Positions 1,434 to 32,988 of a DNA stretch of 64,000 bases are shown here, in pieces; positions within the stretch are counted from its first letter, which is position 1, and the number at the start of each line of letters is the position of its first letter. Source of the DNA: Actinomycetota bacterium (GTDB lineage: Bacteria; Actinomycetota; Actinomycetes; Nanopelagicales; Nanopelagicaceae); NCBI GenBank assembly GCA_015660815.1, contig JACSDF010000003.1, forward strand, positions 133,704 through 197,703, read 5' to 3'. Made by a program: the position numbers and the translations under genes. The notes beneath the pieces were generated by a model, which was given only the letters and a program-made list of their open reading frames with translations, ran no database searches and was not told the origin of the DNA.

Positions 1434-4400
1434 TTAGACTAGGCAGTTTGGTCCTAATATCGATTTCAAATCTGCGCTCAAACTTGGTGATGCAGTAACA
1501 AGGGCATCAATCTTCATAAATGTATCAACCCCATTTTCATTTAGTTGGAGATGAACTTCGCGCTTTCCAGGATGCGAACGCAGAATCTCTTTAATTCGCT
1601 CGACTACTGGTGGAGTGCATTGTGACATAGGTAGTGAAATTACTAATGGACCAATCGGGGCCATGGAAATATCTGGCATCGACATTTCCATAGCAGTAAA
1701 TCGGAGAGCATCATCACGACGATCAACACGTCCACGAACCGTAACAATTCGATCTTCAGTTAACGACATGGAATATTGGTTATATGTCTTTGCGAAGAAC
1801 AGAACCTCCAGTGAACCTTCAAGATCTTCAATCGTAACTACAGCCCATGAAGCACCCTGTCTTGAAACTTTCCTTGTAACACTCGTGATCAACCCGCCAA
1901 TTGTGACTATAGATTCGCTTTGTGCTCCCTCATCTACAAGTTCGCTGATAGTCATATCAGTGCTTGAGCGCAAAATATGCTCAACACCTAACAATGGATG
2001 GTCAGAGACATAGAGACCGAGCATTTCGCGCTCATAGCTAAGGAGCATAGATTTATCCCACTCTCCAATTGGGATTTCCAAATCTAAAGATTCGACATGG
2101 CTTATATTTTCTCCACCAAATAAATCAAATTGACCAATTGCTTCAGCTCGTTTTGCCTCAATTACCGAATCGATGGCTTCAAGATAGACCGCCATTAAAC
2201 CCTTTCTAGTTACTCCCATCGAGCCGAATGCTCCAGCTTTGATCAGAGATTCGATAGTTTTCTTATTACAGACTTGCGCATCAACTTTGGCCAGGAAGTC
2301 ACCAAACGAAGTAAATCGCCCCTTTGATTCGCGAGCGGTTTTTATAGAACCAACCACTCCCTCACCGACATTGCGTATTGCGGCCAATCCAAACCTAATG
2401 TCATTTCCACGCGGCGTGTATTCAGCATTAGATTCATTAATATCTGGTTCAAGAACTTTGATTCCCATACGGCGACACTCGCTCAAATAGAGTGCTGATT
2501 TATCCTTATCATCACGAACACTTGTAAGAAGTGCAGCCATGTATTCAGTTGGGAAATTAGCTTTTAAGTACGCCGTCCAATATGAAACAACCCCGTACCC
2601 TGCCGAGTGCGCACGGTTAAATGCATAGTCAGAGAAGGGAATCAACACATCCCATAACCGCTTGATCGCTGTAGTTGAGTATCCATTTTTTCTCATGCCT
2701 GCTTCAAAGGGAACATACTCTTTATCCAGAATATTTTTATCTTTCTTTCCCATAGCTTTTCTCAGTAAATCTGCGCGACCTAACGAGAATCCAGCAACTT
2801 TTTGAGCTATGGCCATTACTTGTTCTTGATAGACGATGAGGCCATATGTATCCCCAAGTATCTCCGAAAGTGCATCCACGAGTTCGGGGTGAATGGGTTC
2901 AACCGGTTTACGGGAATTCTTTCTATCGGCATAGTTATTATGTGCATTTTCTCCCATAGGTCCTGGTCTATACAGAGCTATGACCGCTGAGATATCTTGA
3001 AAAGAATCGGGAGACATCGAGCGAAGTAGAGCGCGCATTGGCCCACCATCGAGTTGGAAAACACCTAAGGTGTCACCCCGCGACAAAAGTTCATATGTTT
3101 TCTTATCATCAAGAGTTAAATCCTCAAGTACTAGTTCAATTCCTTTATTGCTTTTGATATTTATCAAAGCGTCATCTAGCACCGAGAGATTTCTGAGTCC
3201 CAGGAAATCCATTTTAAGAAGTCCCGTCGCCTCGCAGGCCCCCATGTCGAACTGCGTAATAATTGCCCCATCAGCTTCGCGTCGATGGATGGGAATTACA
3301 TCTAATAACGGCTCCCGTGAAAGAATTACGCCCGCAGCATGAACTCCCCATTGGCGCTTCAGGCCTTCTAGCCCTCGTGCTGTGTCTACTACACGTTTTG
3401 AATCGGCGTCGGATTCATACAGAGTGCGAAACTCACCTGCTTCTCCGTATCGATCATCTTTTGGATTGAAAACTCCACCGAGAGAGATGTCTTTACCCAT
3501 GACCGAAGGAGGAAGAGCCTTAGTGAGTTTTTCGCCAACAACGTACGGATATCCCAGTACTCGCGTTGAATCCTTTATAGCTTGCTTAGATTTAATAGTT
3601 CCATACGTAATAATCTGTGCAACTCGATCTTCGCCGTACTTTTTAGTGGCATAGCGAATCATTTCGCTGCGTCGTCGCTCATCAAAGTCCAAGTCAATAT
3701 CTGGCATTGAGATTCTCTCTGGGTTTAAAAATCGCTCAAAGAGGAGTCCGTGTTCGAGGGGATCGAGTCCCGTTATTCCAAGTGCATAGGCAACAAGTGA
3801 ACCGGGGGCAGAGCCTCGACCTGGTCCAACTCGGATACCCACTTCTTTTGCATGTGCAACTAAGTCAGCAACAACGAGAAAGTAGCCGGGAAAACCCATC
3901 TTCTCCATTACTCCAAGTTCATAGCTCAAACGAGCATGGTGTTCGGGCGTTACTCGCTCGCCCATTCGCAAAATCAGACCATGTTCGGCCTCGCGCTTTA
4001 GCCATGAATCCTCGGTGTGGCCTTCCGGGACTGTAAAAGCTGGTAAAAGGTTTTCCCCTTCGCGAAGGGTCACGTTGCAACGTTCAGCAATAAGTAAGGT
4101 GTTATCACAGCTCTCGGGAATCTCTTTAAAGAGCTCGCGCATCTGCGCAGGGGTCTTGACGTAAAAACTATCGTTATCAAATTTAAATCGCTTCGGATCT
4201 GCCAAAGTGGAGCCAGATTGAACACAGAGCAAGGCTTCGTGTGCTGGGGCATCGGTTTGCAACGTGTAGTGAAGATCATTAGTTGCAAGTAAAGGTAAAC
4301 CTAATTCTTTACCCAATTTTAATAGATCGGATTTTACGCGGCTTTCAATTTCAATTCCATGATCCATAATCTCTAGATAGAAATTGCCTGCACCAAAAAT

Positions 4401-4931
4401 ATCTCTGTAATCACTTGCCGCTTTTATCGCTTCTTTATATGCCCCCATGCGCAAACGTGTTTGTACTTCTCCGCCTGGGCAGCCTGTAGTTGCAATTAAT
4501 CCCGTTGAATATCTAGCTAAAATTTCTCGATCCATGCGAGGCTTGTAGTAATAGCCTTCAAGGGATGCAAGAGATGAGAGTCTGAAGAGGTTTCCTAAGC
4601 CAATATTGTTTTCAGCCAGAATTGTCATATGTGTATATGCACCACCGCCTGAAACATCATCTTCTCCACCATCTGCCCACTTGACACGCTTTTTTTCGAA
4701 TCGAGATTCCGGTGCTACATAGGCTTCAATTCCAATGATTGGTTTAACACCAGTTTTTATGGCACTCTTATAAAAGTCAAAAGCACCGAAAACATTTCCG
4801 TGGTCGGTCATTGCAATTGCGTTCATACCTTGGCGTACGACTTCATCCATGAGATCCCCGACTCGAGCGGCACCATCTAGCATCGAGTATTCGGTGTGAA
4901 CGTGGAGGTGAACGAAATTATCTTTAGTCAT
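1434..4931 (-). CDS. dnaE: DNA polymerase III alpha subunit (replicative DnaE1)
   Basis: 1165 aa; PHP motif HLHVHTEYSMLDG, catalytic PDIDLDF, KMDFLGL, clamp motif QFDLF, C-terminal OB fold; length leaves no room for an intein. Confidence 0.97.
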   Translation of the reverse strand: MTKDNFVHLHVHTEYSMLDGAARVGDLMDEVVRQGMNAIAMTDHGNVFGAFDFYKSAIKTGVKPIIGIEAYVAPESRFEKKRVKWADGGEDDVSGGGAYTHMTILAENNIGLGNLFRLSSLASLEGYYYKPRMDREILARYSTGLIATTGCPGGEVQTRLRMGAYKEAIKAASDYRDIFGAGNFYLEIMDHGIEIESRVKSDLLKLGKELGLPLLATNDLHYTLQTDAPAHEALLCVQSGSTLADPKRFKFDNDSFYVKTPAQMRELFKEIPESCDNTLLIAERCNVTLREGENLLPAFTVPEGHTEDSWLKREAEHGLILRMGERVTPEHHARLSYELGVMEKMGFPGYFLVVADLVAHAKEVGIRVGPGRGSAPGSLVAYALGITGLDPLEHGLLFERFLNPERISMPDIDLDFDERRRSEMIRYATKKYGEDRVAQIITYGTIKSKQAIKDSTRVLGYPYVVGEKLTKALPPSVMGKDISLGGVFNPKDDRYGEAGEFRTLYESDADSKRVVDTARGLEGLKRQWGVHAAGVILSREPLLDVIPIHRREADGAIITQFDMGACEATGLLKMDFLGLRNLSVLDDALINIKSNKGIELVLEDLTLDDKKTYELLSRGDTLGVFQLDGGPMRALLRSMSPDSFQDISAVIALYRPGPMGENAHNNYADRKNSRKPVEPIHPELVDALSEILGDTYGLIVYQEQVMAIAQKVAGFSLGRADLLRKAMGKKDKNILDKEYVPFEAGMRKNGYSTTAIKRLWDVLIPFSDYAFNRAHSAGYGVVSYWTAYLKANFPTEYMAALLTSVRDDKDKSALYLSECRRMGIKVLEPDINESNAEYTPRGNDIRFGLAAIRNVGEGVVGSIKTARESKGRFTSFGDFLAKVDAQVCNKKTIESLIKAGAFGSMGVTRKGLMAVYLEAIDSVIEAKRAEAIGQFDLFGGENISHVESLDLEIPIGEWDKSMLLSYEREMLGLYVSDHPLLGVEHILRSSTDMTISELVDEGAQSESIVTIGGLITSVTRKVSRQGASWAVVTIEDLEGSLEVLFFAKTYNQYSMSLTEDRIVTVRGRVDRRDDALRFTAMEMSMPDISMAPIGPLVISLPMSQCTPPVVERIKEILRSHPGKREVHLQLNENGVDTFMKIDALVTASPSLSADLKSILGPNCLV

Positions 4932-27345: not shown

Positions 27346-27693
27346 TTATTGATTATTACGCTCATCCCAACGCTGTTCAAGGCGAGAACCAAGACCTGCG
27401 CCCTTGCGAGCGCCTTTTATGCGAGGGCTACGCGTTCCCACAGAGGAGACGATTGCAATTACTCCAGTGAGTGCGATGAGAAAGCCAAGAACTCCGATGG
27501 GTGTTGTTTTGGACACTAAGCCAGCAAAGAGCGTCACTACACCAATGAGAATGAAAGCGGCTCCAACCAGAGTTCGCTTTCGTCGCGGCGGCCGAGCTTC
27601 ACCAGATAAGGCTGAAAATAGGCGTGGATCCTCGGTTAAGAGCGCAGCTTCCATCTCCTGGAGCATCCGCTTCTCATGATCAGATAATGGCAT
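27346..27693 (-). CDS. DUF3040 family membrane protein
   Basis: MPLSDHEKRMLQEMEAALLTEDPRL N-terminus, two TMs, C-terminal LEQRWDER; usual position upstream of mraZ. Confidence 0.88.
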   Translation of the reverse strand: MPLSDHEKRMLQEMEAALLTEDPRLFSALSGEARPPRRKRTLVGAAFILIGVVTLFAGLVSKTTPIGVLGFLIALTGVIAIVSSVGTRSPRIKGARKGAGLGSRLEQRWDERNNQ

Positions 27694-27729
27694 ATGGCCA
27701 TAATAGAGAATTTTTCTCGCAGGTGCTAC

Positions 27730-28905
27730 TTATTCATTCTCTGGTGCCGTGGGTTTAATCAATCGGGCTGGACGCACGCTTCCGGCGCCAAATCGAGCCC
27801 TTGCACGGTCAATAGCACCATCGGCTTGGCGCCAACCACTCTCCCGTGCTCCTAAAACCAGCTGCTCTGGAGCACCCCCGCTTAAATTCTCAAGGCTGAC
27901 TCCGACTAATCGAAGGCGAGCCCGGCCGATTTTGAGCGCGTCATAGAGGACCTTTACAACCTCATAAATCTCATGTGTTCCATTGATCGGAAGTGCAAGA
28001 GTTTTAGATCTATTAATAGTTGAAAAATCGGCAAAGCGAACTTTTATTGAAATAGTTTTAGTAAAGAGTTCTTTATCGCGAAGCCTCGCTGATGCACGTT
28101 CGGTTAAGCGCAAAAATTCAGTCAAAATTTCAGCAGGGTTATCTAGATCTCGGGCGAAAGTTTCGGCTGCGCTAATACTCTTTTCAGCATCATGTGGAGT
28201 CACATCGCGATAGTCGCGACCCCACGCAAGTTCATGGAGTGATGCCCCACTGGCCTGTCCCAATGCACGAATCAAAGTAGCGCGTGGCAGGTTCGCGATA
28301 TCTTCAATTGTGCGTAGACCTAAACGCTCAAGAGTTTGTGCTGTTTTTTCTCCTACTCCCCACATCGCTTGAATCGGTAATGGATGTAAGAAAGTTAGAA
28401 TCCGATCTGCTGTAATTTCAAGCATTCCATTAGGTTTGCAGTTCTGCGATGCAAGTTTTGCAATGAACTTTGATGGTGCGATTCCAACTGAACATGTTAT
28501 GCCCTCTTGCGCCTCTACCTTTGCTCGTATCAATGTTGCAATTTCGCGCGGTGAGCCAATTAAGCGTTCTACCCCGCTCACATCTAAGAAGGCCTCATCG
28601 AGAGAGATGGGTTCGACCCATGGAGTAAAACTTTCGAAAATCTTCATAACGTGTGATGAGACTTCTTTATAGCGCGCCATATCTACCGGTAAAAAGATTG
28701 CGTGAGGTGCTAACCGGCGAGCTCGACCTACCGGCATCGCTGCATGTATTCCAAATTTACGAGCCTCATAATTAGCGGCCGAAACAACGCCACGCACACC
28801 CATTCCAATGACTACTGCTTTACCTTTTAGTTCGGGGTTGTCGCGCTCGGCAACGGAGGCAAAAAACGCATCCATGTCCACATGAAGAATCGAGGCCGAA
28901 CTCAT
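27730..28905 (-). CDS. dinB: DNA polymerase IV (Y-family), catalytic residues intact
   Basis: HVDMDAFFAS, SAANYEAR, SLDEAFLD, clamp-like QLVL near the C-terminus. Confidence 0.95.
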   Translation of the reverse strand: MSSASILHVDMDAFFASVAERDNPELKGKAVVIGMGVRGVVSAANYEARKFGIHAAMPVGRARRLAPHAIFLPVDMARYKEVSSHVMKIFESFTPWVEPISLDEAFLDVSGVERLIGSPREIATLIRAKVEAQEGITCSVGIAPSKFIAKLASQNCKPNGMLEITADRILTFLHPLPIQAMWGVGEKTAQTLERLGLRTIEDIANLPRATLIRALGQASGASLHELAWGRDYRDVTPHDAEKSISAAETFARDLDNPAEILTEFLRLTERASARLRDKELFTKTISIKVRFADFSTINRSKTLALPINGTHEIYEVVKVLYDALKIGRARLRLVGVSLENLSGGAPEQLVLGARESGWRQADGAIDRARARFGAGSVRPARLIKPTAPENE

Positions 28906-31900
28906 ATTGCCAGCGTACTTTCTTTAGTACGCCACGTTTCATATGCCGCGCGCAAATCCCAGGCGCCTGTTCCATTAATTGAAATTCCACGCGCACCTGT
29001 TCGGCGGGTAATGCCCCGAACCAGCAACAGGGATGATGAATACAGAACGCTGGCATAGTCGGTCTGTACATCGCTAAAGAATGCCGAGTCGCTACAGCCA
29101 TAGCCATCATCGAGAGTTAAAAAGATAACTCGTTTACCTGAGCGCACGGGTGGCGTCTGCATCGCAACTTTAATGCCAGCTACAAGAACACTAGAGCGTG
29201 AACGAGCCTCTAGTAACTGCGATGATCGAACAGCGCCGATAGCATTAAGAAAATCGCTATAAAACTCAATTAAATGGCGGGACATGTCAATGCCTAAGCG
29301 ATCAACTTCATGGCGCACGCTTTCGGCAGAGTTCATATCGGGAAGACCGCTGCTAATGAGAGCGGGCGGGGCAAATGCTAAGTTCATTTGTGCGCCAGAG
29401 ATAGTTTTATTCGGCGAGCGTTCTAAATCAGATAGATGAAGCAAAAGATCACGGCGGTTAACATCGGTATGTAAGCGGTCAAAGGCTCCTGTAAGAATCA
29501 TGCTTTCAGTAACTGGAGCACTGCTACCAGAACGATGTATGAAGTCAGAGAGATCCGTGTAAGGACGACCAGCGATAATCGATGCAATCTCACCATCACT
29601 AATCTTTGAAATAGTCGATAGCGCAATACGGATTGCTCTCCCTTTTTCTTCAACACGATATAGGGAATCCGATTCATTAACATCTAGTGGTGCGATAGCA
29701 ATCGACATCTGACGCGCCTCATCGACGATTAAACGTTTGGGATACATGCCCGGCTCGTGCGTGAGAACCCCTGCCAAAAAAGCTGCGGGGTAATGTGTTT
29801 TAAGCCAAGCTGATTGGTATGTGGGCATGGCAAAGGCGGCGGCATGGGCTTTGCAAAAACCAAAAGATGCAAAGGCGCGCAAAAGCTCCCAAATCTCATT
29901 GATGATGGGTAGTTCATATCCGCGCGATGTCGCGGCGGGGAAAAACCAGTCACAGACCTCTTGCGCACCGCTCTTATCTCCCAACGCGCGACGTTTTTCA
30001 TCGGCGCTAGCTAAAGAAGCACCTGTCATCGCTGCAATGATTTGGATTACTTGCTCGTGAAAGACAACGACTCCCTCAGTATCTCGCAAGATTTCATAGA
30101 GATCGGGGTGAATAATCTGGGCTTTGCTCCACCCATGACGTGCCTTTAAAAAAGGCGTAATCATGTCACCTTTAACCGGGCCTGGACGAAAGAGGGAGAT
30201 ATCGATAATCAAATCAGTAAAGGTTTTAGGCTCGAGTTTGCCAACTAGTTCGCGCTGGCCCGGACTTTCAACTTGGAAAATTCCAAGGGTACGTGTTGAT
30301 TGAATCAACTCATATGTCCGTGCATCATCTAGTGGTACTGCATCGATATCGATCTTCATATCCTGTGTGCGTTCGATTTCAGTGAGAGCATATGAAATAG
30401 CAGATTGCATGCGCACACCCAGTACATCGAGTTTTAATAAGCCAATTGCTTCGACATCATCTTTATCAAAGATGGACATCGGATAACCGCTAGCGTTAGC
30501 AACCAGTGGCGTGCGATCTAGTAGGCCACCATCAGATAAAACGATCGCGCATGGATGCATTGCTAAATGCCTTGGTAGTCCATCAAGGCGCTCGGCTAGG
30601 GCGATCGTCATCGCAGTAAGCGGGGCTTTAACATTAAGAGATTTAAGTTCAGGCAGGTTTTCAAGTGCGCTAGATATATTGCGTGCACGTACATGTGGCA
30701 TTGACTTTGCCAACATATCAATCTCCATCGCAGGAAGGCCAAGGGCCGCCCCGGCATCGCGAATTGCATGCCTGGCTCGATATGTATCGACCATCGCAAC
30801 GGTTGCGCAGCGCGATTGATTATTGGGTGTGTCCCAGTTTGTATCGCCATAGCGTTTGAAAACCATGTCATAGATTTCAAGGCGTCGATGAGATTCAACA
30901 TCGATATCGATATCAGGCAGAGCTCTGCGAAGCGGTGAACAAAAGCGCTCCATTAATAAGCCGTGCGCCATGGGTTCAACACCTGAGATTCCAAGTAAGT
31001 GACAGATAAGTGAGCCCGCACCACTACCGCGAGCGGCCACGCGGATACCAGCACCCCGCGCCATGTCGCAGATATCGGCAACGGTTAAAAAATACGATTC
31101 AAAACCCAGTGTCGCAATCGTTGATAGTTCATCATCTAAACGTACGCGCGCTTTTTTAATCGCACCACTATCGCTATAGCGCCAGTTGATTCCGGCTTCA
31201 CTTCGAGTGCGCAATACCATGCGCATCTCATGTGCAGATTGCGCACCGACGACATGGGGCTCGGGTAAGTGCGCGCCACCCAAACCAATATCGCGTGCAG
31301 GAGATAATAAAGCGCGCTCGGCCCACGCCCGAGTCGTTGCAAGTAATTGACGCGGTGTGCGCTCTCCAGCTGCACGCGCAATTTCTCCAGCTAATAAAAC
31401 CATCTCATCGCCGGATTTTAAAAAGCCCTCAGCATTACGGCGCTCAACATGGCGCGGATGCAGTGGTACTAACTGGCGAGCGCAATCTAAAACATCTGCC
31501 ACCGGTCCGTCAGCGCGATCTCGCATGCGTACAGCATTTGTAATAACGGCATCGATATCGTGATCGCGAGCAAAAATTAGTGACTTAGCAGCATGTACCA
31601 TCGAGCGCGGGCCTTTGCCTGCAACTACATGTGATACACATTCAATGGCATTGCCGGCAAATAAATCTCGTGTTGTATTAAATGCAGTAAAAGCTGCATC
31701 GATACGGTTATCGGTTAGTAGCGCGCCCACTGGTGATTCGGGGCCATGCAGTGCGTAGAGATGTGAACTGTAATGGTTAAAGCGTTGCAGGAATTCAAGG
31801 GTAAGAACGGGGTTACGATTATCACTCACCATGGCAAGGGATGTAAGTAATCGGCACAACGCCGACCATCCCCCATCACTATGAGCAAGTAGTGTGATGC

Positions 31901-32129
31901 GGTTTTTAACACTCCCTACATCAATACCGAGATTGACTCCGATGATTGGTGCAATGCCATAGTCAAGACAGCTTTGTGCAAAGCGAACTGCGCCAGCTAA
32001 ACCATCGCGATCGGTCAGCGCTAGAGCTGGCATCTCAAACTCGGCTGCGCGCGCAACTAAATCACGTGGCTGGGTTGTGCCGTATTTGAGTGAGTAGGCA
32101 CTTGCAACATTGAGGTGAATAAAACTCAT
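28902..32129 (-). CDS. dnaE2: Error-prone DNA polymerase III alpha DnaE2 (ImuC)
   Basis: 1075 aa second alpha subunit; degenerate PHP (HLNVASAYS), PDIDID, LKLDVLG, GFCKAHAAAFA. Confidence 0.93.
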   Translation of the reverse strand: MSFIHLNVASAYSLKYGTTQPRDLVARAAEFEMPALALTDRDGLAGAVRFAQSCLDYGIAPIIGVNLGIDVGSVKNRITLLAHSDGGWSALCRLLTSLAMVSDNRNPVLTLEFLQRFNHYSSHLYALHGPESPVGALLTDNRIDAAFTAFNTTRDLFAGNAIECVSHVVAGKGPRSMVHAAKSLIFARDHDIDAVITNAVRMRDRADGPVADVLDCARQLVPLHPRHVERRNAEGFLKSGDEMVLLAGEIARAAGERTPRQLLATTRAWAERALLSPARDIGLGGAHLPEPHVVGAQSAHEMRMVLRTRSEAGINWRYSDSGAIKKARVRLDDELSTIATLGFESYFLTVADICDMARGAGIRVAARGSGAGSLICHLLGISGVEPMAHGLLMERFCSPLRRALPDIDIDVESHRRLEIYDMVFKRYGDTNWDTPNNQSRCATVAMVDTYRARHAIRDAGAALGLPAMEIDMLAKSMPHVRARNISSALENLPELKSLNVKAPLTAMTIALAERLDGLPRHLAMHPCAIVLSDGGLLDRTPLVANASGYPMSIFDKDDVEAIGLLKLDVLGVRMQSAISYALTEIERTQDMKIDIDAVPLDDARTYELIQSTRTLGIFQVESPGQRELVGKLEPKTFTDLIIDISLFRPGPVKGDMITPFLKARHGWSKAQIIHPDLYEILRDTEGVVVFHEQVIQIIAAMTGASLASADEKRRALGDKSGAQEVCDWFFPAATSRGYELPIINEIWELLRAFASFGFCKAHAAAFAMPTYQSAWLKTHYPAAFLAGVLTHEPGMYPKRLIVDEARQMSIAIAPLDVNESDSLYRVEEKGRAIRIALSTISKISDGEIASIIAGRPYTDLSDFIHRSGSSAPVTESMILTGAFDRLHTDVNRRDLLLHLSDLERSPNKTISGAQMNLAFAPPALISSGLPDMNSAESVRHEVDRLGIDMSRHLIEFYSDFLNAIGAVRSSQLLEARSRSSVLVAGIKVAMQTPPVRSGKRVIFLTLDDGYGCSDSAFFSDVQTDYASVLYSSSLLLVRGITRRTGARGISINGTGAWDLRAAYETWRTKESTLAI

Positions 32130-32407
32130 ATCGATCTAATAATCCATTGACCGCTGAGTTCGTCGCGTTCTAATTCGAAGGTTGTAAGAGCTCCAATCGG
32201 GGCCGCCTCAACGCGCCACACTGCACGAGCGGCATCATCGGGGCGATACTTTCCATCGCTAATTCGATTCCACCACCCTCCGGCTTCACACCATCTGGAT
32301 AAAACTGCGTGGATACGAAAGCGCTTGCCCTTGAAAGTAAACTCGATAGGAGTAGTTGCGCCATCGATCATGACATCGTGGGCGGAGTTAATCTGAGGGG
32401 CTGACAT
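32126..32407 (-). CDS. DUF6504-like small protein (resembles the ImuB C-terminal domain)
   Basis: 93 aa; P..F.FKGKRFRIHAVLSRW...GGWW...WRVE...FEL......W pattern; ATGA overlap with the dnaE2 start. Confidence 0.75.
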   Translation of the reverse strand: MSAPQINSAHDVMIDGATTPIEFTFKGKRFRIHAVLSRWCEAGGWWNRISDGKYRPDDAARAVWRVEAAPIGALTTFELERDELSGQWIIRSI

Positions 32408-32439
32408 TTCTACGGTGTGCTCCTTGTAGCTGTGGATAT

Positions 32440-32455
32440 TCGAACAGGTGTTCGA
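32440..32455. promoter_or_regulatory. LexA (SOS) box
   Basis: Perfect TCGAAC-AGGT-GTTCGA, the actinobacterial LexA consensus; directly downstream of a candidate minus-strand promoter TTGCTA(32480-32485)-18 nt-TAGTTT(32456-32461). Confidence 0.92.
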
Positions 32456-32502
32456 AAACTAGCCCCTTGGGCTGACAGATAGCAAGTGGCTATGGCGTGT
32501 CG

Positions 32503-32540
32503 CCTAGAATATTAGTTGAAAGTTCAACTAATATTCTAGG
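32503..32540. promoter_or_regulatory. Perfect 18-bp inverted repeat, probable repressor operator of the DoxX gene
   Basis: CCTAGAATATTAGTTGAA-AG-TTCAACTAATATTCTAGG; contains candidate -10 TAGAAT (32505-32510). Confidence 0.7.
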
Positions 32541-32574
32541 AAGCATGTTAACCCCTCGCTAAGGAGAGAAATCC

Positions 32575-32988
32575 ATGGACGCTGTTCTCGTTGTAGGTCG
32601 TATCCTCTTTGCGCTGATCTTCATCAACATGGGCGTCATTCACGTCACCAAAGTTGCGGTGATGGCTGGCTATGCCACGAGCAAGAAGGTGCCAGCCGCA
32701 AAGCTCGCAACCATCGTTACGGGTCTGATGATTTTAGTTGGTGGTCTCTATATTGCATTTGGTGTGTATGCCGATCTCGGTGCGCTTCTTATTGCAATCT
32801 TCCTTATTCCAACTGCGTTCATGATGCATGCATTCTGGAAAGAAACTGATGAAACAGCTAAGCAGAATGAGATAAACGGCTTCTTTAAAGATATTGCACT
32901 CGCCGGTGCTGCACTAATTATCTTTGTACTTGTTGGTTCTGGTGCAGATTTCGGCCCAAGTATTACGGGTACTTTTTTTAATTTTTAA
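32575..32988 (+). CDS. DoxX family membrane protein
   Basis: VGRILFALIF..G..H, four TMs, H.FWK, FFKDIALAG; SD AAGGAG. Confidence 0.88.
   Translation: MDAVLVVGRILFALIFINMGVIHVTKVAVMAGYATSKKVPAAKLATIVTGLMILVGGLYIAFGVYADLGALLIAIFLIPTAFMMHAFWKETDETAKQNEINGFFKDIALAGAALIIFVLVGSGADFGPSITGTFFNF

What the first reader, a model, noticed from the sequence alone, without database searches (positions are those of the whole stretch)
27730..32485. LexA-controlled DUF6504-dnaE2-dinB cassette: a mutasome with a stand-alone ImuB-C adaptor and an active Pol IV instead of ImuA/ImuB
Seen: a perfect SOS box overlaps the predicted start of transcription. Three genes follow, linked by ATGA stop/start overlaps. There is no imuA or full imuB in the window. 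DinB keeps its catalytic residues (DMDAF, SLDE) and a clamp-like QLVL. DnaE2 has QMNLAF at a position comparable to the internal clamp motif (QFDLF) of DnaE1. The 93-aa first protein shows the P..F.(W/F).G....I....W....WW...WRV...FEL...W pattern that, by my recollection, resembles the ImuB C-terminal extension. Established: in the M. tuberculosis mutasome the catalytically dead ImuB supplies clamp binding and its C-terminal region binds DnaE2. Inference: here ImuB functions are split, with a free adaptor bridging DnaE2 and an active DinB. Retention in a streamlined, probably UV-exposed freshwater genome suggests selection.
Basis: partly seen in the sequence, partly recalled or inferred. Interest (0 to 1): 0.65.

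Follow-up and report, generated by a model that had tools for sequence, protein, structure and literature searches.

The report
SOS-controlled ImuB-C/DnaE2B/Pol IV operon

Summary
On the minus strand, a perfect LexA box (TCGAAC-N4-GTTCGA, 32440-32455) lies directly after a conserved -35/-10 pair. Three genes joined by ATGA overlaps follow: a 93-aa DUF6504 protein, a 1075-aa DnaE2 and a 391-aa DinB with intact catalytic residues.

The genome is 98% complete. It has no other Y-family polymerase, and its only match to the ImuA model is RecA.

The interpretation also holds:
- DUF6504 is the ImuB C-terminal domain (ImuB-C). Named ImuB proteins carry PF20114 at their C-termini, and profile-profile comparison gives 95.5% probability.
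- The DnaE2 falls in the DnaE2B clade, apart from mycobacterial and rhizobial DnaE2A.
- The DinB has a clamp motif (QLVLGA) followed by a RecA-N-terminus-like tail.
- The DinB is 46% identical over its full length to the published Tessaracoccus exemplar.

This is therefore the DnaE2B-PolY-[ImuB-C]-RecA putative mutasome of Timinskas and Venclovas (NAR 2019; NAR 2026). The 2026 supplement already tallies Ca. Planktophila genomes with one DnaE2B and one PolY-core.

The operon is conserved across the genus under strong purifying selection. It is a compact form that lacks the small-ORF and methyltransferase genes seen in relatives. No experiment has tested the complex. Novelty is low.

The parts
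32480..32485 (-). Candidate -35 hexamer TTGCTA
   Evidence: Read from the sequence. Conserved as TTGC(T/C)A in 31 distinct upstream regions (window plus Ca. Planktophila loci) while the flanks vary. Not reported by the consensus scan.
32456..32461 (-). Candidate -10 hexamer TAGTTT, 18 nt after the -35
   Evidence: Read from the sequence. Conserved as TA(G/T)TTT. The LexA box begins on the next base.
32440..32455 (.). LexA (SOS) box TCGAAC-N4-GTTCGA, a perfect palindrome
   Evidence: Only match in the window and only perfect copy in the genome. Related sites lie upstream of lexA, recA and uvrA. The GAAC-N4-GTTC core is present upstream in 79 of 80 related loci; the exception has only 33 nt of upstream sequence.
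32126..32407 (-). imuB-C: 93-aa stand-alone ImuB C-terminal domain protein (Pfam DUF6504)
   Evidence: PF20114 at 39.2 bits. hhalign against rhizobial ImuB C-termini gives 95.5% probability, E 1.4e-8. BLASTP against a published ImuB-C exemplar gives E 7e-8. AF2 model is all-beta with pLDDT 73. dN/dS about 0.05.
28902..32129 (-). dnaE2 (DnaE2B group): 1075-aa C-family polymerase
   Evidence: Has the PHP, polymerase III alpha, finger, HhH and OB domains. Scores below the cut-offs of both the replicative and the 'error-prone' NCBIfam models. Sits in a fully supported clade with Streptomyces DnaE2B, apart from DnaE2A and DnaE1. PDIDID and KLDVLG are kept, while the PHP H-x-H motif reads H-L-N.
29373..29390 (-). 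QMNLAF, clamp-binding-like motif of DnaE2 (residues 914-919)
   Evidence: Aligns with QFDLF of the window's DnaE1. A Q-x-x-[LF]-x-[LFV]-type motif occupies this position in most DnaE2B-clade rows, and DnaE2A rows have a gap there.
27730..28905 (-). polY/dinB: 391-aa Y-family polymerase with intact catalytic residues, the only one in the genome
   Evidence: IMS, IMS_HHH and IMS_C domains. NCBIfam Pol IV PRK03858 at 384 bits against a cut-off of 367. Single PF00817 hit in the genome. 46% identity over the full length to Tessaracoccus lapidicaptus VEP41451.
27847..27864 (-). QLVLGA, beta-clamp-binding motif of PolY (residues 348-353)
   Evidence: Read from the sequence. A glutamine-led Q-x-x-L-type motif stands at this position in nearly all PolY orthologues of the module. 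From my own knowledge, E. coli Pol IV has QLVLGL.
27757..27834 (-). RecA-N-terminus-like (RecA-NT/DUF4113-like) tail of PolY (residues 358-383)
   Evidence: hhalign of 29 orthologous tails against RecA residues 7-29 gives E 4.9e-5. DUF4113 is the only Pfam hit of the tail, at E 0.21. Aligns with the tail of the published exemplar.

Best explanation
This is the LexA-repressed operon imuB-C / dnaE2 (DnaE2B) / polY of Candidatus Planktophila. It is a compact member of the DnaE2B-PolY-[ImuB-C]-RecA putative mutasome.

Shown here:
- The operator sequence and its conservation.
- The three coupled genes.
- Homology of the 93-aa protein to the ImuB C-terminal domain.
- The DnaE2B clade assignment.
- A PolY with intact catalytic residues, a clamp motif and a RecA-NT-like tail.
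- Absence of ImuA and ImuB from the genome, and presence of RecA.
- Strong purifying selection on all three genes.

Inferred from established SOS biology and from the published AlphaFold models:
- DNA damage activates RecA, LexA cleaves itself, and the operon is transcribed from a promoter whose start lies inside the box.
- The ImuB-C beta-barrel binds the PHP domain of DnaE2B and links it to PolY.
- The PolY tail binds a RecA protomer in the place that ImuA occupies in the canonical system.
- PolY, and probably DnaE2B through its own motif, dock on the beta clamp.
- The complex carries out error-prone lesion bypass and gap filling.

Because this PolY is the genome's only Y-family polymerase, it presumably also does ordinary Pol IV work.
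For: - Operator. It is the only perfect copy in the genome, and sibling sites lie at lexA, recA and uvrA. The box and the -35/-10 footprint are conserved across the genus.
- DUF6504 equals ImuB-C. PF20114 matches residues 430-502 of a 505-aa rhizobial ImuB. Named ImuB proteins carry PF20114 in the precomputed domains. hhalign gives 95.5% probability, E 1.4e-8. BLASTP against a published ImuB-C gives E 7e-8.
- DnaE2B. Identity is 44-51% to Streptomyces-type DnaE2 but about 30-33% to mycobacterium-like and rhizobial DnaE2A. The tree places it in a fully supported clade. It scores 637 bits against a cut-off of 939 on the 'error-prone' NCBIfam model.
- PolY. Catalytic motifs, clamp motif and RecA-NT-like tail are conserved in 29 orthologues. 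It is 46% identical to the published exemplar, tail included.
- Genome content. One PolY, two DnaE, no ImuA, and RecA present.
- Gene order. ImuB-C, DnaE2, PolY on one strand and in that order in 24 of 40 loci from diverse Actinomycetota families, and in every Ca. Planktophila locus long enough to show it.
- Selection. dN/dS is 0.05-0.08 for all three genes.
- Literature. PMC6511836 and PMC12926913 describe this module, and Ca. Planktophila rows show DnaE2B=1 and PolY-core=1.
Against: - No interaction, induction or mutagenesis data exist for this module in any organism. The complex rests on AlphaFold models in the 2026 paper, and I could not run a multimer model.
- The RecA-NT assignment rests on a short motif, with modest statistics (68% hhalign probability, DUF4113 at E 0.21).
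- The promoter hexamers are weak by E. coli consensus and the scan did not call them.
- The ImuB-C model has only moderate confidence (pLDDT 73) and no PDB relative, so the fold adds little beyond the sequence homology.
Confidence: 0.8

Rival explanations
1. The three genes share SOS control but do not form a complex. DinB acts as an ordinary stand-alone Pol IV, DnaE2 as a separate damage-induced polymerase, and the DUF6504 protein has an unrelated or purely regulatory role, for example inhibiting or chaperoning one polymerase.
For: - PolY is the only Y-family polymerase in the genome, so it must at least carry out Pol IV functions.
- ImuB-C also occurs without DnaE2, in lexA-imuB-C-polY loci (L136, L137), and alone in five of 40 loci.
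- No physical interaction was tested.
Against: - 4-nt start/stop overlaps imply translational coupling.
- The ImuB-C-DnaE2-PolY order persists across many Actinomycetota families.
- ImuB-C is homologous to the domain that binds DnaE2 in the mycobacterial mutasome (PMC6511836).
- The 2026 paper reports a confident AlphaFold tetramer for the Tessaracoccus orthologues.
Confidence: 0.12
2. The DnaE2-like gene is a second accurate, replicative-type DnaE paralogue rather than an error-prone polymerase. On this view the cassette supplies back-up replication or gap filling after damage without mutagenesis.
For: - Its NCBIfam score on the replicative DnaE model (653 bits) is about the same as on the error-prone model (637 bits), and both are below their cut-offs.
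- It keeps a clamp-motif-like hexapeptide at the DnaE1 position.
- No DnaE2B enzyme has had its fidelity measured, as far as the papers I read say.
Against: - It groups with DnaE2 lineages, not with the DnaE1 clade that holds the window's true DnaE1.
- Its PHP H-x-H metal-binding motif is degenerate (H-L-N), whereas the window's DnaE1 has HLHVH.
- It is under a LexA box and is coupled to a Y-family polymerase and ImuB-C.
Confidence: 0.06
3. The cassette is a canonical ImuA'-ImuB-DnaE2 system whose imuA'/imuB genes lie in the unassembled 2% of the genome.
For: The assembly has 64 contigs and is estimated 98% complete, so a gap is possible in principle.
Against: - The DnaE2 is outside the DnaE2A clade, the only clade found with ImuA/ImuB (PMC12926913).
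- The published table for complete Ca. Planktophila genomes shows a single Y-family polymerase.
- A stand-alone ImuB-C would be redundant alongside a full ImuB.
Confidence: 0.02

Closest known systems
DnaE2B-PolY-[ImuB-C]-RecA putative mutasome of Actinobacteria (Timinskas and Venclovas; PMC6511836, 2019; PMC12926913, 2026; exemplar Tessaracoccus lapidicaptus VEP41449-41451 plus RecA)
   Same: - Stand-alone ImuB-C, DnaE2 of the B group, and a PolY with intact catalytic residues and a RecA-NT tail.
- No ImuA or ImuB in the genome.
- PolY is 46% identical over its full length to the exemplar.
- Ca. Planktophila genomes are already in that survey's tables, with DnaE2B=1 and PolY-core=1.
   Different: - This is a compact form: three genes with 4-nt overlaps, lacking the small ORF between imuB-C and dnaE2 and the methyltransferase between dnaE2 and polY that several relatives carry.
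- The PolY is the cell's only Y-family polymerase.
- The LexA operator and promoter footprint are described here. I did not find them mentioned in the passages I read.
Mycobacterial ImuA'-ImuB-DnaE2 mutasome (M. tuberculosis Rv3395c/Rv3394c/Rv3370c; PMC10421592, PMC11791113)
   Same: SOS-inducible. A C-family DnaE2 works with a Y-family scaffold, an ImuB-C domain that contacts DnaE2, a RecA-NT motif that recruits a RecA-fold partner, and a clamp-binding motif on the Y-family protein.
   Different: - Here the Y-family protein keeps its catalytic residues.
- ImuB-C is a separate 93-aa protein.
- There is no ImuA', and RecA is the inferred substitute.
- The DnaE2 is in a different clade (B, not A) and carries its own clamp-motif-like hexapeptide, which DnaE2A lacks.
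Streptomyces DnaE2B-scDinB2 (inactive PolY) pair (PMC3273824; PMC12926913)
   Same: The nearest DnaE2 relatives are here, at 44-51% identity. The gene order, dnaE2 followed by a Y-family gene, is the same.
   Different: The Streptomyces PolY is truncated or inactive, with a weak IMS N-terminal domain, and has no ImuB-C partner. No DUF6504 was found in the Streptomyces-like genomes sampled.
Geobacter-type lexA-imuB-C-polY operon (PMC6511836)
   Same: A stand-alone ImuB-C is coupled to an active PolY under SOS control. Actinobacterial examples were seen here at L136 and L137.
   Different: That operon has no DnaE2.
[quoted passage not shown]
   Same: An SOS-induced Y-family polymerase that needs a small accessory subunit and a RecA protomer, bound through a RecA-NT-like motif in the polymerase tail.
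   Different: The accessory subunit is unrelated: UmuD' has an SH3-like barrel and ImuB-C a different barrel (per PMC12926913). Pol V has no C-family polymerase partner.

Membership tests
DnaE2B-PolY-[ImuB-C]-RecA module (PMC12926913) | [quoted passage not shown] | tested here: met
   PF20114 at 39.2 bits against a cut-off of 24.2. PF20114 lies at the C-terminus of named ImuB proteins. hhalign gives 95.5% probability. BLASTP against the published ImuB-C QBR94233 gives E 7e-8.
DnaE2B-PolY-[ImuB-C]-RecA module (PMC12926913) | DnaE2 of the DnaE2B group, not DnaE2A | tested here: met
   The tree puts it in a fully supported clade with Streptomyces DnaE2B and all ImuB-C-linked DnaE2s, apart from the rhizobial and mycobacterium-like DnaE2A clade. 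Identities are 44-51% against about 30-33%. The paper's table lists DnaE2B=1 for Ca. Planktophila.
DnaE2B-PolY-[ImuB-C]-RecA module (PMC12926913) | Apparently active Y-family polymerase | tested here: met
   DMDAFF and SLDEAF acidic residues are kept and conserved in 29 orthologues. Pol IV NCBIfam model scores above its cut-off. Enzyme activity itself was not assayed.
DnaE2B-PolY-[ImuB-C]-RecA module (PMC12926913) | RecA-NT motif in the PolY C-terminal tail | tested here: met
   The tail profile aligns to RecA residues 7-29 (E 4.9e-5, 68% probability). DUF4113 is the sole Pfam hit, at E 0.21. The tail aligns with that of the published exemplar. The support is moderate because the motif is short.
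DnaE2B-PolY-[ImuB-C]-RecA module (PMC12926913) | Genome lacks imuA and imuB but has recA | tested here: met
   One PF00817 hit in the genome. NF033429 hits only recA. tblastn with rhizobial ImuA and ImuB is negative, and RecA is found on contig C53. The assembly is 98% complete.
DnaE2B-PolY-[ImuB-C]-RecA module (PMC12926913) | The four proteins form a physical complex | not testable with these tools
   No multimer modelling or experiment was available here. The paper reports an AlphaFold tetramer for the Tessaracoccus orthologues.
Canonical ImuA(')-ImuB-DnaE2 mutasome | Catalytically dead ImuB with a fused ImuB-C domain | tested here: not met
   The only Y-family protein keeps its catalytic residues, and ImuB-C is a separate gene.
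Canonical ImuA(')-ImuB-DnaE2 mutasome | ImuA or ImuA' partner | tested here: not met
   No match other than RecA. A very divergent ImuA' could escape these searches, but it would have no ImuB to bind.
LexA (SOS) regulon | LexA operator in the promoter region | tested here: met
   Perfect TCGAAC-N4-GTTCGA at 32440-32455. Related sites lie upstream of lexA, recA and uvrA in the same genome. The site is conserved in relatives.
LexA (SOS) regulon | LexA binding and damage induction | not testable with these tools
   This needs EMSA and expression data.

The most novel reading that the evidence does not exclude
The Ca. Planktophila operon is the minimal natural form of the ImuA/ImuB-free mutasome. 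It would consist of just ImuB-C, DnaE2B and the cell's only Y-family polymerase, plus housekeeping RecA. Both polymerases would carry their own clamp motif, and PolY would do double duty as Pol IV and as an ImuB-like scaffold. The small ORF and the methyltransferase embedded in relatives' operons would then be dispensable accessories. This would be the simplest version of the system to reconstitute.
Probability: 0.5. Interest if true: 0.35.

Novelty: already known. Interest (0 to 1): 0.2.

Why it matters
DnaE2 mutasomes drive damage-induced mutagenesis, including chromosomal drug-resistance mutations in mycobacteria. The ImuA/ImuB-free variants are known only from comparative genomics and AlphaFold models.

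This window adds a clean, compact example:
- The organism is one of the most abundant freshwater bacterial lineages.
- The LexA operator is well defined, and the SOS regulon appears to be very small.
- The genome has no competing Y-family polymerase.

That makes it a convenient template for a first biochemical reconstitution. It does not change what is known about the kind of system.

Tried and rejected
- A full-text search for 'DUF6504' found no paper. The relevant literature uses the name 'ImuB-C'.
- A single-sequence phmmer search of the 93-aa protein against 1.84 billion representatives returned almost only small stand-alone proteins and no ImuB-sized protein with a C-terminal match. The link to ImuB needed the Pfam profile and profile-profile comparison.
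A narrower alignment worked but returned almost only Ca. Planktophila and close Nanopelagicaceae relatives, so the wider contexts came from the genome search and the fetch from genomes.
- The consensus promoter/terminator scan found nothing upstream of imuB-C and no terminator after polY.
- Foldseek of the AF2 model against the PDB gave no match better than E 1.8. This agrees with the 2026 paper's statement that ImuB-C has no close structural relative.
- I looked for the leader RNA hairpin that earlier notes report in relatives. The 32-nt leader here has none. The only stem is the LexA palindrome itself, with a z-score of -1.45.
- The strong hairpin-like palindrome at 32510-32547 goes with the divergent DoxX gene rather than the cassette. 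It is absent wherever that neighbour is absent.

Full report
**What is there.** The finding lies on the minus strand. Reading 5' to 3' from 32485:
- A candidate -35 hexamer, TTGCTA (32485-32480).
- An 18-nt spacer.
- A candidate -10 hexamer, TAGTTT (32461-32456).
- Directly next, the palindrome TCGAACACCTGTTCGA (32455-32440).
- A 32-nt leader containing AAGGAG.
- Three open reading frames: 32407-32126 (93 aa), 32129-28902 (1075 aa) and 28905-27730 (391 aa).

Each junction between reading frames is a 4-nt ATGA overlap.

Pfam assigns the three proteins as follows:
- 93 aa: DUF6504 (PF20114, 39.2 bits, cut-off 24.2).
- 1075 aa: a complete DnaE-type polymerase, with PHP, polymerase III alpha, finger, HhH and OB domains.
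- 391 aa: a complete Y-family polymerase, with IMS, IMS_HHH and IMS_C domains.

NCBIfam calls the 391-aa protein Pol IV (PRK03858, 384 bits against a cut-off of 367). The DnaE protein falls below both the replicative model (653 bits, cut-off 1002) and the 'error-prone' model (637 bits, cut-off 939).

**The organism.** The 93-aa protein is 100% identical to one in a MAG labelled uncultured Candidatus Planktophila sp., and the closest 80 loci are almost all from Ca. Planktophila or other Nanopelagicaceae. The assembly holds 1.585 Mb in 64 contigs and is estimated 98% complete.

**Is the SOS box real?**
- The 16-mer is the only match in the window, even allowing one mismatch.
- It is the only perfect copy in the whole genome.
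- The other sites with the CGAAC-N4-GTTCG core that lie upstream of a gene belong to three genes: lexA (55 nt upstream of the ORF's first possible start), recA (165 nt upstream) and uvrA (78 nt upstream; this site also falls inside a long open frame on the same strand). These are the classic SOS genes, which identifies the motif as this organism's LexA operator.
- The GAAC-N4-GTTC core is present upstream of the gene in 79 of 80 related loci. The one exception has only 33 nt of upstream sequence.
- In an alignment of 31 distinct upstream regions (the window and 30 Ca. Planktophila loci), the two hexamers, the spacer and the box are conserved while the flanks diverge.
- The consensus scan does not call this promoter. 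'The box overlaps the transcription start' is therefore an inference from a phylogenetic footprint, not a demonstrated fact.

**No ImuA or ImuB in the genome.**
- PF00817 finds exactly one Y-family gene in the genome, the cassette's own.
- PF07733 finds two DnaE genes. One is the 1165-aa DnaE1, also in this window at roughly 1436-4930 on the minus strand. The other is the cassette gene.
- The ImuA model NF033429 hits only recA.
- tblastn with a rhizobial ImuA and ImuB finds nothing, and RecA is present on contig C53.

**DUF6504 is the ImuB C-terminal domain.**
- The first hint was that PF20114 also matched Caulobacter, which has imuAB-dnaE2, in the control panel.
- In a 505-aa ImuB from a Sinorhizobium imuA-imuB-dnaE2 operon, PF20114 matches residues 430-502, the extreme C-terminus after IMS_C (E 0.0012).
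- Several proteins that their sources name ImuB carry PF20114 among their precomputed domains.
- A profile of 86 stand-alone DUF6504 proteins aligns to a profile of 116 rhizobial ImuB C-termini with 95.5% probability and E 1.4e-8.
- The 93-aa protein aligns to a protein that the 2026 NAR paper labels ImuB-C, QBR94233, with E 7e-8.
- The AlphaFold2 model has six strands and one short helix, at mean pLDDT 72.8. It has no PDB match better than E 1.8. Both points agree with the paper's description of ImuB-C as a beta-barrel without close structural relatives.

**The DnaE2 is a DnaE2B.**
- It is 44-51% identical to Streptomyces-type DnaE2.
- It is only about 30-33% identical both to the two DnaE paralogues of mycobacterium-like genomes and to rhizobial DnaE2.
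- In a maximum-likelihood tree of 49 DnaE proteins, it sits in a fully supported clade. That clade holds the Streptomyces DnaE2 proteins and most of the ImuB-C-linked DnaE2 proteins I collected. The clade is separate from the DnaE2A clade (Sinorhizobium plus mycobacterium-like genomes) and from DnaE1.
- The polymerase aspartate motifs PDIDID and KLDVLG are present. The PHP H-x-H motif reads H-L-N, against HLHVH in the window's DnaE1.
A Q-x-x-[LF]-x-[LFV]-type motif stands at this position in most DnaE2B-clade rows, while DnaE2A rows have a gap there.

**The PolY.**
- The catalytic motifs are intact here and in 28 orthologues from other families.
- After the little-finger domain comes QLVLGA (residues 348-353), and then W-x-x-A-x-x-A-I-D-R-x-x-x-R-F-G-x-G-S-V.
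- The tail profile aligns to RecA residues 7-29, the N-terminal helix and strand that mediate RecA-RecA contacts (E 4.9e-5).
- DUF4113 is the only Pfam hit of the tail (E 0.21).
- The whole protein, tail included, is 46% identical (E 6e-117) to Tessaracoccus lapidicaptus VEP41451. That protein is the PolY of the published DnaE2B-PolY-ImuBC-RecA exemplar, for which the paper's supplement records a 'good tetramer complex modeled'.

**How common is it?**
- PF20114 is found in 149 of 401 sampled Actinomycetota genomes. None of the Streptomyces-like or mycobacterium-like genomes listed in that output has a match.
- In 40 loci from many families, 24 have ImuB-C, DnaE2 and PolY in that order on one strand. 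Two more have a convergent PolY.
- Six loci have ImuB-C and DnaE2 only.
- Two have lexA-imuB-C-polY without DnaE2, five have ImuB-C alone, and one (L131) showed LexA and a DnaE2 but no ImuB-C match.
- Every Ca. Planktophila locus long enough to show it has the full trio.
- dN/dS against three relatives is 0.05-0.08 for each gene.
- Several relatives carry an extra small ORF between imuB-C and dnaE2 and a class-I methyltransferase between dnaE2 and polY. Earlier notes of this scan call the small ORF HEPN-like.
- Neither extra gene has a homologue anywhere in this genome. The Planktophila operon is therefore a compact form, as are six of the 40 loci.

**Comparison with what is known.**
- PMC6511836 (2019) reported ImuA-ImuB-DnaE2 variants that lack ImuA. 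[quoted passage not shown]
- PMC12926913 (February 2026) divides DnaE2 into A, B and X groups and states that DnaE2B genomes lack imuA and imuB.
- It names an actinobacterial group made of DnaE2B, an apparently active PolY, a stand-alone ImuB-C and RecA. It places ImuB-C against the DnaE2 PHP domain in AlphaFold models of the mycobacterial mutasome.
- Its supplementary table lists Ca. Planktophila dulcis and sulfonica with DnaE1=1, DnaE2B=1, PolA1-core=1 and PolY-core=1.
- Earlier notes of this scan on other genomes reached the same identification.

**Verdict.**
- The system is already known at the level of comparative genomics, for this genus as well.
- What remains open everywhere is experimental proof of the complex and of the division of labour between the two polymerases.
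- The compact Planktophila operon has a single Y-family polymerase and a clear operator, so it would be a convenient system for that test.

Noticed in passing
window 32510-32547, between the cassette promoter and the divergent DoxX gene at 32575: A perfect palindrome with 17-bp arms (CCTAGAATATTAGTTGA ACTT TCAACTAATATTCTAGG) folds far better than shuffled sequence (z -7.8). Its core, TA(G/A)TTGAA-N-TTTCAACTA, is conserved in relatives only where the DoxX-family gene is the divergent neighbour, and the outer arms are complementary in only some genomes. It looks like an operator or leader element of the DoxX gene, not part of the mutasome operon.
   Followed up: partly
own genome: C25:2633 (lexA), C53:12604 (recA), C39:100664 (uvrA), C39:166145 (this cassette): Apart from one intergenic near-match with no gene beside it (C39:55952), only four sites with the CGAAC-N4-GTTCG core lie upstream of genes in the 1.585-Mb genome. 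The SOS regulon of this streamlined bacterium may therefore be reduced to lexA, recA, uvrA and the mutasome operon. Weaker sites were not searched with a weight matrix.
   Followed up: partly
window 29373-29390 and the aligned position in loci L118-L168: Most members of the DnaE2B clade keep a Q-x-x-[LF]-x-[LFV] hexapeptide at the position of the internal clamp-binding motif of DnaE1. The DnaE2A clade (mycobacterium-like and rhizobial) has a gap there. This suggests that DnaE2B can dock on the clamp itself, unlike DnaE2A, which relies on ImuB. I did not find this stated in the passages I read.
   Followed up: partly
window 27346-27729 and downstream: polY ends 36 nt before a DUF3040 gene, which is followed by mraZ and rsmH, the start of the cell-division (dcw) cluster, all on the same strand. 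No terminator-like site was found between them. SOS-driven read-through into the dcw leader genes is possible but untested.
   Followed up: no
proteins P0146 (1440 aa), P0149 (378 aa), P0186 (690 aa): A few long proteins match the 93-aa ImuB-C protein in three to six separate stretches. They may carry repeated ImuB-C-like or tryptophan-rich modules. Their nature was not examined.
   Followed up: no
loci L120 3313-3780, L121 11135-11635 and 6143-7003, L118 7661-8842: In same-class relatives the operon holds an extra small ORF of about 140-165 aa with no NCBIfam hit between imuB-C and dnaE2, and a class-I SAM methyltransferase (best hit CmoM-like) between dnaE2 and polY. Both are absent from the whole Planktophila genome.
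   Followed up: partly
loci L136 and L137 (genomes G146 and G172): These are lexA-imuB-C-polY operons without DnaE2 in one Actinomycetota family. Their PolY is only 29-32% identical to the window's. They resemble the Geobacter-type operon described in PMC6511836.
   Followed up: no
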